A DNA stretch of 7,535 nucleotides, taken from the IMG/VR virus record IMGVR_UViG_3300007790_001480, positions 1-7,535 of that record. One strand, given 5' to 3'. Under the pieces are notes generated by a model, which worked only from the letters and a program-made list of their open reading frames with translations, was not told the DNA's origin and did no database searches. Both the position numbers and the translations under genes were made by a program. Shown here piece by piece: positions 5,522 to 7,535 of the stretch. Every line of letters starts with the position of its first letter. Position 1 is the first letter of the stretch. Origin of the DNA: a virus.

Positions 5522-5550
5522 AGTATGTTGTCATGTTGTCATGTTGTCAA
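5522..5550 (-). promoter_or_regulatory. Sigma70-type promoter of the gV-like/coat/assembly operon, with octamer repeats in the spacer
   Basis: Minus strand reads TTGACA (5545-5550), a 17-nt spacer, then CATACT (5522-5527), 46 nt upstream of ATG 5476. The -35 and spacer are made of three TGACAACA units. Confidence 0.6.
5526..5549. repeat. Three perfect tandem octamers (TGTTGTCA on plus, TGACAACA on the coding strand); candidate operator/iterons
   Basis: tgttgtca at 5526-5533, 5534-5541 and 5542-5549. A related array lies at 7173-7193. Confidence 0.9.
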
Positions 5551-5560
5551 TACAGCATGT

Positions 5561-5573
5561 GATCAAGTTGATA
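5561..5573 (-). promoter_or_regulatory. Candidate rolling-circle nick site / double-strand origin core (coding strand TATCAACTTGATC)
   Basis: The coding strand reads CAACTTGAT (complement of 5562-5570). This matches the start of the phiX174 origin CAACTTG/ATATT and the CTTG/ATA nick core of pC194-type replicons as I recall them. It is intergenic and overlaps the palindrome atcaagttgat (5562-5572). Confidence 0.35.
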
Positions 5574-5613
5574 AACTATTTTTTCTGGTTGTTTGTAAAA
5601 GGTTGAAAATTAA

Positions 5614-5802
5614 ATGATTTCTGCATATCTTCGGATAAAGAAAAACGAAGAAAAAGCGTTAGAGTCTCTGTCACAAGAAGTGAACAGACAAAGGCTAGAT
5701 TTAAAAATGGGGGTAATGAAAGAAAGCGAGATACTGCACGAGCTTTTAAACGAAGCATTCAAGAAGGCACGTGCAGAGGACGGGAAAATTAAAATAGACT
5801 AG
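5614..5802 (+). CDS. Possible small regulator (62 aa), ribbon-helix-helix-like pattern; the only plus-strand candidate gene
   Basis: The ORF fills an otherwise gene-free 312-nt gap and encodes a K/E-rich helical protein. ISAYLRI (a possible beta strand) is followed by EEKALESLSQEV and KESEILHELLNEAFKKA, which resembles the SE-hIReAh second helix of CopG/Arc-type proteins. AAGG lies 11 nt upstream. I found no convincing plus-strand promoter. Its 3' end overlaps the rep 3' end by 14 nt. Confidence 0.35.
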   Translation: MISAYLRIKKNEEKALESLSQEVNRQRLDLKMGVMKESEILHELLNEAFKKARAEDGKIKID

Positions 5803-7087
5803 GTGTGTCTAGTACTTGGGGGACTTCATCAATAAATTTGGGTAACACTATTTCTGTATTAATGATTTCTTCAAGTACTAGAATTTCATATTCAGCTAAA
5901 GAAGAAATTAAAATTTCAGCAGATCCATTACCTAGAACACCGTTCAACTTATCATTAGTAATGCAATCCAAAAATTGAGCACGTTTTTTATATTTGCACA
6001 GAAGATGAAAGGCCATATCTTCAATAGTTGTTAAAAATTCAGCTTCATCTAGTACAGAATCGGCTATCTCATCATCTGTTAAATCTTTGATTGCAAAGGC
6101 ATGTTTTAAACCGCGAGAAAACATTAATTGTCTTGCACCTTTGAAAGCAATTGCAAATTCTTGAAATAATTTCGAAGGTAACTTATCTTCAAAAATAGAA
6201 TTATCTTGTTCAGATAGCCTAAGCAAATCAAACGGTGTAAAAGTTTCACGGCCTTTTTTTACATGGGCTTTAGTCATCTCATGTTCGATACCCCATTTTC
6301 CCACATACTGATCTGCATAAGTACCGTCTTGAAAGTCACAAGCAATAAACTTTTCAGAATCTTTTAATTTACGAATACCAACAGAAGCAAGGGAAGCTCT
6401 CCAGTGGTCTGCCATGACTTCATGAAGGGCAGTAAAATCATGAATAGATAAATATTTATCAGAAAAAACTAGGATATGGTGATGAGGATGCCAACCGTTT
6501 TGACCGTAGGTAACTTCATAATTAGTAATATGAAAACGCTTACCCAACATGTGATCAAAAATATAACGGCCTTTGCGATCAGAAAAAAATTTCTTCATCG
6601 CTTCTTTTTGCTTTTCACGCAGAGTAGACAAACGATCATTAGCATAATGCGGATTCGTTAAAGTGATTAAATATGTATAACCTTTTACGTGTTCTTCAAC
6701 AAAACGAGGAGGGCCAATAAATGTTTTTGATTGTTCTACTGGAGAGAAAAGAGTAATACCCTTTTTCCAGCGCTCATTGATTGTTGCTAACTCTAAACGT
6801 CTTTTTTCAGTAATTTTCTTTGCACAAACCGGACAGACCCAGACAGAACCACACCGAATAACATTACCGAAATGAGCCTTTTTTGTTGTTTGATTCCAGC
6901 AGACATTTCTTAATTCTGACTTATTAATTTTGCGCTTTAAGCAGTATTTCACACGGAATTTATGTTGAAGTAATTTTGATGCTTGATCTTGTAAAAGATA
7001 GTCAGAGAGCCTGTTTTGATCAATTGCGGAGTGAGATTTCGTAAGTATACCGAGAGCCGGCAAAATTTGACTTTTGTCATTTATCAT
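5789..7087 (-). CDS. rep: Rolling-circle replication initiator, HUH endonuclease superfamily (432 aa)
   Basis: AGGA lies about 10 nt upstream of ATG 7087. Three motifs occur in order: YLITLT (aa 139-144, FLTLT-like motif 1); WHPHHHILVF (aa 199-208, nt 6476-6493, the HUH motif); and YADQYVGK with Tyr257 and Tyr261 (nt 6305-6319, YxxxY motif 3). There is also an N-terminal Cys cluster, C63...C79-x5-C85-x2-C88 (RCGSVWVCPVCAKK). Confidence 0.9.
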   Translation of the reverse strand: MINDKSQILPALGILTKSHSAIDQNRLSDYLLQDQASKLLQHKFRVKYCLKRKINKSELRNVCWNQTTKKAHFGNVIRCGSVWVCPVCAKKITEKRRLELATINERWKKGITLFSPVEQSKTFIGPPRFVEEHVKGYTYLITLTNPHYANDRLSTLREKQKEAMKKFFSDRKGRYIFDHMLGKRFHITNYEVTYGQNGWHPHHHILVFSDKYLSIHDFTALHEVMADHWRASLASVGIRKLKDSEKFIACDFQDGTYADQYVGKWGIEHEMTKAHVKKGRETFTPFDLLRLSEQDNSIFEDKLPSKLFQEFAIAFKGARQLMFSRGLKHAFAIKDLTDDEIADSVLDEAEFLTTIEDMAFHLLCKYKKRAQFLDCITNDKLNGVLGNGSAEILISSLAEYEILVLEEIINTEIVLPKFIDEVPQVLDTPSLF

Positions 7088-7128
7088 TTAAAATAAATCC
7101 TGTGTTCACCGTACACGAAATTCGAAGA

Positions 7129-7154
7129 AGCCCGGGTTGCAGCCTGGGCTTTTT
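7129..7154 (+). terminator. GC-rich stem-loop plus T5: terminator-like when read on the plus strand, and a 5'-leader hairpin of the rep mRNA when read on the minus strand
   Basis: agcccggg (7129-7136), loop ttgcag, cctgggct (7143-7150), then ttttt (7150-7154). On the plus strand all 8 positions pair (one G-U) and a U-run follows. On the minus strand there is one A-C mismatch and the tail is UUCUUCGAAUUU. It lies between the rep -10 (7166-7171) and ATG 7087. Confidence 0.4.
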
Positions 7155-7165
7155 CACGTCTTAAA

Positions 7166-7194
7166 ATTGTATTGTTGTCATGTTGTCATGTCAA
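7166..7194 (-). promoter_or_regulatory. Near-consensus sigma70-type promoter of rep, with octamer repeats in the spacer
   Basis: Minus strand reads TTGACA (7189-7194), a 17-nt spacer TGACAACATGACAACAA, then TACAAT (7166-7171). This is about 79 nt upstream of ATG 7087. Confidence 0.7.
7173..7193. repeat. Octamer array, second copy: two full TGTTGTCA units plus a truncated TGTCA
   Basis: tgttgtca at 7173-7180 and 7181-7188, then tgtca at 7189-7193. The flanks (aaaattgta / aaactatt) also match the flanks of the 5526-5549 array (acaattagta / aaactatt). Confidence 0.9.
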
Positions 7195-7367: not shown

Positions 7368-7535
7368 CTAAATAAGCGTAACTATACCCTGATAAATCTG
7401 AATATCTTTGTTAAGTCTACGGATAGATCGGACAGCCTTAGCACGATCTTCAAACGTCCAGAGATTATTTTCACCAGAAAAAATTTGAGACAATTCTTCA
7501 TCTGTAATTTGAGAACAAATCACAGCAGTAAAACA
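7368..7535 (-). CDS. Same 87-aa wrap-around ORF, C-terminal part (partial at the window edge; 7445-7535 duplicates 1-91)
   Basis: Hand translation of the minus strand from 7535 downward stays in frame with the 1-187 segment and stops at TAG (7370-7368). Confidence 0.5.
   Translation of the reverse strand, partial: CFTAVICSQITDEELSQIFSGENNLWTFEDRAKAVRSIRRLNKDIQIYQGIVTLI
7445..7535. repeat. Terminal direct repeat, copy 2 (identical to 1-91)
   Basis: Same comparison as copy 1. The repeat runs exactly to the window end, so its true extent is not bounded by the data. Confidence 0.95.

What the first reader, a model, noticed from the sequence alone, without database searches (positions are those of the whole stretch)
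7165..7194. Duplicated promoter-operator module: TGACAACA octamer repeats fill the spacer of two perfect -35 promoters (rep and the structural operon)
On the coding strand the rep promoter reads TTGACA-TGACAACATGACAACAA-TACAAT. The operon promoter at 5522-5550 reads TTGACA-ACATGACAACATGACAA-CATACT. Both have a 17-nt spacer built from tandem TGACAACA units (2.6 and 3 copies), and the flanks match too (aaaattgta/aaactatt vs acaattagta/aaactatt). About 38 nt of regulatory DNA is therefore present twice, 1.65 kb apart, in front of the two main transcription units. Direct repeats occupying the -35 and spacer are the architecture expected for a repressor that occludes RNA polymerase, or for Rep-binding iterons that couple replication to transcription. 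One protein could switch both units together.
Basis: seen in the sequence. Interest (0 to 1): 0.62.

Follow-up and report, generated by a model that had tools for sequence, protein, structure and literature searches.

The report
Shared 8-bp operator arrays, inovirus promoters
A small filamentous phage of Acinetobacter carries the same 8-base repeat inside the promoters of its replication gene and its virion-production operon, and comparison with relatives points to a 62-residue phage protein of an unnamed family as the repressor that binds it: a familiar kind of switch built from unfamiliar parts.

Summary
TGACAACA (coding strand) occurs five times in the 7444-bp circular inovirus. All five copies lie inside the two best sigma-70-like sites of the genome, one upstream of rep and one upstream of the ssDNA-binding/structural operon.

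Across 16 related phage loci, 64 of 67 exact octamers lie in these two regions. They occur in direct and in inverted arrangements.

The likeliest binder is the product of the only opposite-strand gene (62 aa, 5614-5802). Distant homologues of this protein sit beside unrelated Rep families. They carry the same octamer upstream of their gene only when their N-terminus reads YLR[LI] (4 of 4, against 0 of 8). An invariant extended -10 footprint marks the 62-aa gene's own promoter, next to the array.

Three cautions apply:
- The fold is not shown to be ribbon-helix-helix.
- In most relatives the rep-side site is not inside a recognisable promoter.
- Tiny Acinetobacter rolling-circle plasmids with a related Rep carry the same arrays but have no 62-aa gene. 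This is unexplained and keeps Rep or a host factor alive as the binder.

The scan reached the same repressor reading earlier on related genomes.

The parts
5526..5549 (-). Site B: three perfect tandem octamers (TGACAACA x3 on the coding strand)
   Evidence: Invariant in 9 aligned relatives. Present as 2-5 units in all 15 relatives that hold this region.
5550..5573 (-). Three degenerate units in the same 8-nt register upstream of site B (TATCAACT TGATCACA TGCTGTAT)
   Evidence: Read; the register is kept in L009, L011 and L015 (TAACAACA TGATTACT TGCTGTAT). Overlaps the P62 extended -10 on the other strand.
5522..5550 (-). Promoter-like site of the ssDNA-binding/structural operon: -35 TTGACA 5550-5545, 17-nt spacer, -10 CATACT 5527-5522
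   Evidence: 10/12, second best in the window. The positions that matter most, C-A-T-x-x-T of the -10 and TTGACA, are invariant in relatives. No RNA evidence.
7173..7193 (-). Site A: two perfect octamers (7173-7188) plus a 5-nt partial unit TGACA (7189-7193)
   Evidence: 14 of the 15 relatives aligned over the rep-upstream region keep 2-3 units in 8-nt register upstream of rep.
7166..7194 (-). Promoter-like site upstream of rep: -35 TTGACA 7194-7189, 17-nt spacer, -10 TACAAT 7171-7166
   Evidence: 11/12, best in the window. The same layout is found in L007 and L006 only.
5569..5577 (+). Extended -10 (TG-a-TAAACT) of the inferred promoter of the 62-aa gene; the array then lies at about -35 to -58 of it
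   Evidence: In alignment A3 the invariant columns outside the array are exactly TG (-15/-14), T-12, A-11 and T-7. A TGnTAnnnT motif can be read in every relative shown.
5614..5802 (+). 62-aa ORF (p62plus), the only opposite-strand gene; candidate octamer-binding repressor
   Evidence: Conserved at 47-88% identity in all related phages. 69 close homologues were found. PHROG 5642, function unknown. AlphaFold2 model pLDDT 90.5. The Tyr-type N-terminus covaries with the octamer.
5789..7087 (-). rep, rolling-circle initiator of the Rep_1/Rep63 kind; its 3' end overlaps the 62-aa ORF by 14 nt
   Evidence: Pfam Rep_1, E=1.4e-4, below the cut-off. 32-53% identity to Rep of small Acinetobacter rolling-circle plasmids.
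5240..5476 (-). 78-aa first gene of the operon; OB fold, likely ssDNA-binding protein (gene V position)
   Evidence: AlphaFold2 model pLDDT 85. Foldseek best hits are all OB folds, probability up to 0.98, E about 0.07-0.8. PHROG 21135.
7124..7155 (.). A-run / GC hairpin / T-run between site A and rep: terminator-like on both strands, stronger on the + strand (antisense to rep)
   Evidence: + strand -26.9 kcal/mol, z -4.0; - strand -19.5, z -1.3. The asymmetry is the same in L003; the hairpin is symmetric in L008. Conserved in all relatives.
7101..7117 (-). Small conserved hairpin in the rep leader (GTGT-ACGGTGA-ACAC)
   Evidence: The stem is replaced with compensating changes in L027/L028 (GAGTT-CTGCT-AACTC). 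A similar hairpin precedes rep in the plasmids.

Best explanation
The octamer TGACAACA is the operator unit of a small phage repressor, the 62-aa product of the only opposite-strand gene (5614-5802). Several copies of this protein are proposed to bind side by side to the 8-bp units. At the operon promoter, three units span the -35, the spacer and the start of the -10. At the rep promoter, 2.6 units span the -35 and the spacer. Bound protein would therefore keep RNA polymerase off two near-consensus promoters, and would turn down genome replication and virion production together. The same operon-side array lies just upstream (about -35 to -58) of the protein's own extended -10 promoter, so the protein also senses its own level. 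Whether that feedback is positive or negative is open. Transcription from this promoter runs antisense through rep to a terminator placed just before the rep promoter, which may add interference with rep expression. Shown here: the repeats, their conservation, their placement, and their covariation with the protein family. Inferred: binding, repression, transcription start sites, and the antisense effect.
For: (1) There are five exact octamers against 0.41 expected, all inside the two best promoter-like sites of the window. (2) In 16 related loci, 64 of 67 exact octamers lie within 200 nt upstream of rep or in the gap between the 62-aa gene and the 78-aa gene: 11.2 per kb against 0.034 per kb elsewhere. 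(3) The array is invariant while its flanks diverge, in phages whose 62-aa protein is 52-85% identical to the window's and whose Rep is down to about 40% identical. (4) Units occur in direct and in inverted order: L028 is TGACAACA-TGTTGTCA-TGACAACA, and the rep-side sites of L008, L012 and L016 are near-palindromic. This fits a protein-binding unit, not a mere -35 element. (5) Distant homologues of the 62-aa protein (26-49% identity) lie divergent from rep genes of an unrelated family (Pfam Phage_CRI/G2P_X_C), in the position rstR has in CTXphi. Four of four homologues with the N-terminal motif YLR[LI] have 1-4 exact octamers in the 260 nt upstream of their gene. Eight of eight without the Tyr have none. 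The remaining 29.3 kb of those loci has none. Fisher p = 0.002, not corrected for relatedness. (6) Tyr5 and Arg7 are invariant in the Acinetobacter-phage group. (7) An invariant TG/T-12/A-11/T-7 footprint marks the protein's own promoter beside the array. (8) An 8-bp head-to-tail spacing requires a very small reading head, which suits a 62-aa protein (inference from MetJ and omega).
Against: Ten sampled rolling-circle plasmids of Acinetobacter (1.6-2.5 kb), whose Rep is 32-53% identical to the phage Rep, carry the octamer. Most carry it as arrays in 8-nt register, up to 8 units. None has a homologue of the 62-aa protein in any frame. Three other plasmids of this Rep family carry 8-bp arrays of different units at the rep stop codon, which looks like replicon-specific sites. 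The protein's fold is not assigned: Foldseek found nothing below E = 1, hhalign against Arc gave probability 0.6%, and Pfam found nothing. A 42%-identical homologue (Inovirus D_HF3_19) has no octamer, although it lacks the Tyr. In most relatives the rep-side units are not inside a recognisable promoter, and a terminator-like hairpin stands between them and rep. There is no binding, RNA or genetic evidence.
Confidence: 0.62

Rival explanations
1. The octamers are iterons bound by the rolling-circle initiator Rep. Rep would repress its own promoter and the operon promoter, coupling replication to transcription, as the HUH Rep proteins of geminiviruses and circoviruses do at short repeats.
For: The same octamer arrays occur in 1.6-2.5 kb plasmids whose only conserved gene is a related rep. 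In plasmids, octamer-like units abut the likely rep promoter. 8-bp arrays of other units sit at the rep stop codon of further plasmids of this Rep family: ACGTAACC x5, TGAAACAN x5, ATTCGCCA x2.4.
Against: The identical octamer stands upstream of 62-aa homologues in inoviruses with an unrelated Rep family (Phage_CRI). On the Rep tree the octamer does not follow Rep lineages: it is the same unit at 32% Rep identity (p3AB5075) and differs or is absent in closer plasmids. The arrays are dispensable in plasmids: there is a clean presence/absence difference between L035 and L032, and none in L064 and L065. In the phages the arrays are far from the conserved origin-like element.
Confidence: 0.13
2. 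A chromosomal DNA-binding protein of Acinetobacter recognises the octamer, and phages and plasmids of this host have each recruited it.
For: The unit is shared by replicons with deeply diverged Rep proteins that live in one genus.
Against: No Acinetobacter species genome holds the triple array. Among 72,556 plasmids, the blastn matches to the array that were examined are Rep63-type small plasmids and inovirus replicative forms. The covariation with the Tyr-type 62-aa protein, and the confinement of the octamers to the 260 nt upstream of that gene, are not expected for a host factor. No known factor with this site turned up.
Confidence: 0.08
3. No dedicated binder exists. The repeat is slippage-prone DNA whose TGACA core simply supplies -35 elements, so the arrays are promoter-building sequence and nothing more.
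For: The -35 hexamers are made of the repeat itself. Copy number varies among near-identical plasmids, x0, x6, x7 and x8. Triple arrays of the same unit exist in unrelated bacteria.
Against: Inverted units, dispersed single units upstream of distant 62-aa homologues (L075), and arrays in plasmids with no -10 at the right distance do not serve as -35 elements. Perfect conservation of all 8 positions, including the three that lie outside the hexamer, is not needed for a -35.
Confidence: 0.07

Closest known systems
Omega repressor of Inc18 plasmid pSM19035 and its heptad arrays
   Same: A very small protein is proposed to bind short non-palindromic units that are packed head to tail. The units are tolerated in direct and in inverted order, and they are placed in several promoters, including the one next to the protein's own gene. 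One protein thus co-ordinates replication and other functions.
   Different: The units are 8 bp here, not 7 bp. The setting is a filamentous phage, not a plasmid. No sequence or fold similarity to ribbon-helix-helix proteins could be shown. No centromere role is evident. Binding is untested.
MetJ and tandem 8-bp met boxes of E. coli
   Same: The operator is built from 2-5 tandem 8-bp units that overlap the promoter, and occupancy scales with the number of units.
   Different: Met boxes are palindromic, and MetJ needs S-adenosylmethionine as a co-repressor. Here the unit is asymmetric (TG-ACAA-CA) and no ligand is implied.
RstR of Vibrio phage CTXphi
   Same: It is a repressor gene of an inovirus, transcribed opposite to the replication genes from a shared control region. 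Distant homologues of the 62-aa protein occupy exactly that position next to Phage_CRI-type rep genes.
   Different: RstR is a helix-turn-helix protein with long operators at a single promoter. In this window the regulator gene lies downstream of rep and converges on it, so two promoters each need their own operator set.
Pseudomonas phage PMBT54 ORF2 region (PMC10534721)
   Same: A small antisense ORF overlaps the 3' end of a related rep (26% identity). It is followed by four tandem 8-bp units (TCGTGTTN) just before the ssDNA-binding genes.
   Different: The unit sequence differs. No homology between ORF2 and the 62-aa family was detected (hhalign probability 0.4%). No second array was seen in the 3-kb and 1-kb stretches read. 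The paper does not discuss the repeats.
Iterons of geminivirus and circovirus Rep (HUH initiators)
   Same: These are short tandem repeats, with a period of about 6-8 bp, inside the rep promoter of a small rolling-circle replicon, giving autorepression. This is the model for the Rep rival.
   Different: Those iterons adjoin the nick-site hairpin and follow Rep specificity. Here the arrays are far from the origin-like element, and they follow the 62-aa family instead of Rep.

Membership tests
Ribbon-helix-helix (Arc/MetJ/CopG/omega) repressors | N-terminal beta-strand followed by two helices, forming an intertwined dimer | tested here: inconclusive
   The AlphaFold2 monomer model (pLDDT 90.5) has residues 1-9 unstructured, helices 10-29 and 37-51, and an extra C-terminal beta-hairpin 52-61. 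A dimer could not be modelled with the tools available.
Ribbon-helix-helix (Arc/MetJ/CopG/omega) repressors | Detectable sequence or fold similarity to known members | tested here: not met
   No PDB hit by profile search. Foldseek best E = 1.7. No RHH Pfam family was hit by 45 family members.
Ribbon-helix-helix (Arc/MetJ/CopG/omega) repressors | Alternate residues of the N-terminal strand read the bases | tested here: inconclusive
   Ser3, Tyr5 and Arg7 are conserved, and Tyr5 covaries with the octamer, 4/4 against 0/8. This is suggestive only.
Repressor-operator pair | The operator co-occurs with the regulator gene across otherwise unrelated replicons | tested here: met
   Octamers stand upstream of Tyr-type homologues next to Phage_CRI-type or unknown rep genes. 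Exception: plasmids that have arrays but no regulator gene.
Repressor-operator pair | The protein binds the DNA and lowers transcription | not testable with these tools
   Needs EMSA or footprinting and reporter assays.
Sigma-70 promoters | -35 and -10 hexamers at 16-18 nt spacing, with conserved key positions | tested here: met
   Scores of 11/12 and 10/12, the two best of 25 hits in the window, although the total count equals the shuffle expectation. The key positions are invariant at site B. At site A this holds only in the window, L007 and L006.
Sigma-70 promoters | A transcription start 6-8 nt downstream of the -10 | not testable with these tools
Rep-binding iterons of a rolling-circle origin | Repeats adjoin the nick site and are required with it | tested here: not met
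   The origin-like element shared with the plasmids (GC hairpin + CCCTGATTACA) lies at about 633-655 on the - strand. That is 0.9 kb from site A and further from site B. Some plasmids lack the arrays.
Rep-binding iterons of a rolling-circle origin | The repeat sequence follows Rep specificity | tested here: not met
   The octamer is scattered over the Rep tree and also occurs with Phage_CRI-type Rep.

The most novel reading that the evidence does not exclude
The 1.6-2.5 kb Rep63-type plasmids of Acinetobacter carry arrays of up to eight copies of the inovirus repressor's operator but have no repressor gene. They could be satellites or decoys of these phages. The arrays would soak up the phage repressor, or would place the plasmid under phage control. 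Plasmid copy number and phage production would then be coupled, and array length (x0, x6, x7, x8 among near-identical plasmids) would act as a tuning knob.
Probability: 0.15. Interest if true: 0.75.

Novelty: new variant of a known kind. Interest (0 to 1): 0.5.

Why it matters
Filamentous phages of Acinetobacter baumannii were described only recently, and nothing is known about how they regulate themselves. The paper that first characterises them contains no occurrence of 'promoter' or 'repressor'. This work gives a concrete, testable switch: an 8-bp operator unit, two target promoters, and a 62-aa candidate repressor. That protein belongs to a widespread inovirus family with no annotation (54 cluster representatives at E <= 0.001). 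A single residue, Tyr5, appears to track operator choice. The same operator on tiny cryptic plasmids of a clinically important genus hints at cross-talk between phage and plasmid. If the protein proves to be a ribbon-helix-helix relative, it extends the omega/MetJ style of operator to phages. If it does not, it is a new small DNA-binding fold.

Tried and rejected
- RHH assignment of the 62-aa protein: not supported by Pfam, PDB profile search, Foldseek or hhalign.
- Homology to PMBT54 ORF2: none. HMMER did not reproduce that ORF's MatP_C label.
- The 78-aa protein as binder: rejected. It has an OB fold and sits in the gene V position.
- The 87-aa protein as binder: rejected. It is present in only one relative.
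- The phiX174/pC194-like CAACTTGAT beside site B as a nick site: not conserved in relatives. The invariant bases there fit an extended -10 on the other strand. A better origin candidate lies elsewhere.
- Megablast of the genome, and tblastn of the 78-aa protein, against deposited phages: no match.
- Search of species genomes for the 62-aa family: nothing.
- Viral-contig hits L010, L013 and L014, and the 13 genome hits for the triple array: unrelated repeats.
- Literature searches for the octamer and for plasmid transcription data: nothing useful.
- Host of the Phage_CRI-type relatives: could not be established.

Full report
WHAT THE WINDOW IS. Bases 1-91 repeat at 7445-7535, and the record is an IMG/VR virus with direct terminal repeats, so the unit is a 7444-bp circle. 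All long ORFs lie on the - strand. They have the layout of an inovirus:
- rep, 5789-7087 (Pfam Rep_1, weak hit);
- a 78-aa protein;
- a short Zot-like P-loop protein;
- a coat-like 96-aa protein;
- a 419-aa adsorption-like protein;
- a DUF2523 protein;
- a 499-aa Zot/pI protein.
The only conserved + strand gene is a 62-aa ORF at 5614-5802. It converges on rep and diverges from the 78-aa gene. Close homologues of this ORF are labelled Acinetobacter baumannii. A dimeric replicative form of a relative is deposited as an Acinetobacter soli 'plasmid'. The host genus is therefore Acinetobacter.

THE OBSERVATION. TGTTGTCA (TGACAACA on the coding strand) occurs five times, at 5526/5534/5542 and at 7173/7181. 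Chance expectation is 0.41, and no shuffle out of 200 reaches five. The consensus scan finds as many promoter-like sites as shuffled sequence does. However, its two best hits are exactly these places, both on the coding strand: TTGACA-17-TACAAT upstream of rep and TTGACA-17-CATACT upstream of the 78-aa gene. The first repeat unit supplies the -35 at each site. The ungapped duplication is 30 nt at 83% identity. The 'aaactatt' flank is displaced by 20 nt at the operon site.

CONSERVATION. Fifteen related viral contigs were collected, with Rep 37-86% identical to the window's. They keep the order rep, opposite-strand 62-aa gene, octamer array, 78-aa gene, as far as each contig reaches. Of 67 exact octamers in 94 kb, 47 lie in the gap between the 62-aa and 78-aa genes. 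A further 17 lie within 200 nt upstream of rep. Only 3 lie elsewhere.

In an alignment of nine operon-side regions the 24-nt array is almost invariant while the flanks drift. Outside the array, the invariant bases fall into two groups:
- the T that completes the TTGACA, and the C-A-T-x-x-T of the -10;
- on the other strand, TG, T, A and T at the spacing of an extended -10 that reads into the 62-aa gene.
This second group is a clean footprint of a divergent promoter pair with the array between and over the two promoters.

The units also occur in inverted order. L028 has TGACAACA-TGTTGTCA-TGACAACA, and the rep-side sites of L008, L012 and L016 are near-palindromes. This speaks for a protein-binding unit and against a mere -35 element.

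One caution applies to the rep side. Only the window, L007 and L006 have the units inside a good promoter. Most relatives have TGATAACA+TGACAACA with no recognisable hexamers.

BETWEEN SITE A AND rep. A hairpin flanked by an A-run and a T-run lies between site A and rep in every relative. In the window and in L003 it folds better on the + strand (z about -4) than on the rep-sense strand (z -1.3 to -1.8). This suggests that transcripts starting at the 62-aa gene run antisense through rep and end here. A second, small hairpin just before the rep start codon keeps its pairing through a complete change of stem sequence in L027/L028.

WHO BINDS: FIRST ROUND.
- The 62-aa protein folds with high confidence into a loose N-terminus, two helices and a short C-terminal hairpin.
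- Nothing links it to ribbon-helix-helix proteins or to any Pfam family.
- The 78-aa protein is an OB fold in the gene V position.
- The 87-aa protein is not conserved.

WHO BINDS: THE PLASMID COMPLICATION. The phage Rep is 32-53% identical to the Rep of tiny (1.6-2.5 kb) rolling-circle plasmids of Acinetobacter. These belong to the Rep_1/Rep63 group described in PMC9927589 and PMC5559437. Several of them carry the same octamer:
- eight units in 8-nt register in pDA33382-2;
- three to four units in pVB2486_6 and p94-2-p5;
- two to three inverted units in p3AB5075;
- units that abut the likely rep promoter in pM131-10 and others.
None of these plasmids encodes a relative of the 62-aa protein in any frame. 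Other plasmids of the family have 8-bp arrays of different units at the rep stop codon. Taken alone, this favours Rep as the binder.

Four points count against Rep. The arrays are dispensable, because near-identical plasmids differ by a clean array indel. The unit does not follow the Rep tree, in which phage and plasmid Reps interleave. In the phages the arrays lie far from the element that phages and plasmids share as the likely origin, a GC hairpin plus CCCTGATTACA at window positions about 633-655, - strand. The fourth point is the covariation set out below.

WHO BINDS: THE DECIDING COMPARISON. A profile search found distant relatives of the 62-aa protein. Their contigs are inoviruses with an unrelated initiator (Pfam Phage_CRI/G2P_X_C). 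There the small gene lies divergent from rep, as rstR does in CTXphi.
- Four of these relatives have the N-terminal motif YLR[LI], as every Acinetobacter-phage member does (Tyr5 and Arg7 are invariant).
- All four have exact TGACAACA/TGTTGTCA copies (3, 1, 4 and 2) in the 260 nt upstream of the gene, and none elsewhere in the locus.
- Eight relatives with another residue in place of Tyr have none.
- The other 29.3 kb of these loci has none.
- Fisher p = 0.002, without correction for relatedness.
- Overall identity to the window's protein is similar in the two groups.
- One non-Tyr member (L080) has its own repeated ACATGTAAC motif instead.
So the octamer travels with one subtype of the 62-aa family across Rep families. 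That is what a repressor-operator pair predicts. It is not expected for Rep iterons or for a host factor.

MECHANISM PROPOSED. The 62-aa protein binds the units side by side. It covers the -35-to--10 stretch of the operon promoter and the -35 and spacer of the rep promoter, and so represses both. The operon-side array lies at about -35 to -58 of the protein's own promoter, so the protein also feeds back on itself. Its transcript may additionally interfere with rep by convergent transcription. The 8-bp head-to-tail packing, the tolerance of both orientations and the use of several promoters resemble the omega repressor with its heptads and MetJ with its met boxes. This is a functional likeness only. 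Membership of the RHH superfamily was tested and not shown.

WHAT REMAINS OPEN.
- Why plasmids without the gene carry the arrays: decoy or titration, a relic of phage-plasmid exchange, or a second binder.
- What the rep-side units do where no promoter is visible.
- The sign of the autoregulation.
- All binding and transcript data.

PRIOR WORK. No paper that discusses the repeat arrays was found. The only paper characterising A. baumannii filamentous phages does not treat regulation. Earlier agents of this scan reached the same repressor reading on related genomes. The covariation with Tyr5 and the plasmid arrays do not appear in the summaries of those notes.

Noticed in passing
window 534-660: The main non-coding region holds, on the rep-sense strand, tttttCCCTGATTACCagc (about 655-633). 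It is followed by a GC-rich hairpin island (606-534) that contains an inverted partial copy of it. The same element (GC hairpin with compensating stem changes, then CCTTC..CCCTGATTACAAGCTCCC) is conserved in most related phages and in the Rep63-type plasmids. It resembles the pC194/pUB110 nick region and is the best candidate for the origin (double-strand or single-strand).
   Followed up: partly
L035 (NZ_CP030108.1) 2320-2359 and 1-24; also L039, L041, L036, L037, L040: Tiny Acinetobacter rolling-circle plasmids carry 2-8 units of the phage octamer without the 62-aa gene. Unit number differs (0, 6, 7, 8) among otherwise near-identical plasmids.
   Followed up: partly
L033 1443-1483; L061 414-452; L062 1455-1473: Other plasmids of the same Rep family have 8-bp-period arrays of different units (ACGTAACC, TGAAACAN, ATTCGCCA) right at the rep stop codon. 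In L033 and L061 the array stands just before the origin-like element.
   Followed up: no
window 7124-7155 and 7101-7117: A terminator-like hairpin between the rep promoter and rep folds better on the antisense strand. It is followed by a small conserved hairpin in the rep leader that shows compensating stem changes in L027/L028. Together with an antisense transcript from the 62-aa gene, this layout recalls countertranscript-driven attenuation of rep in pT181-type plasmids.
   Followed up: partly
window 5502-5511 (coding strand TTGTACTGA; TTGTACAA in relatives): A conserved, partly palindromic TTGTAC(A/T) motif sits at the expected transcription start of the operon promoter (T..TAC invariant). 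It could be a second binding site.
   Followed up: no
window 470-510: Tandem CAACTAATCAA repeats stand next to the GC island in the main non-coding region. Their function is unknown.
   Followed up: no
window 4834-5217: A 127-aa stand-alone Zot-like P-loop protein (Pfam Zot, E=1e-9) is encoded in addition to the full-length 499-aa Zot/pI protein.
   Followed up: no
L066 (Pseudomonas phage PMBT54) 1765-1796: Four tandem 8-bp units (TCGTGTTN) lie between the antisense ORF2 and the ssDNA-binding genes, and the last unit forms TTGACG. The layout is analogous to the window's, in a distant inovirus of another host. The published description of the phage has no occurrence of 'direct repeat' or 'promoter'.
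   Followed up: partly
Rep tree: Rep proteins of these inoviruses fall into two clades that interleave with plasmid Reps. This indicates repeated exchange of the replication module between filamentous phages and small rolling-circle plasmids in Acinetobacter.
   Followed up: partly
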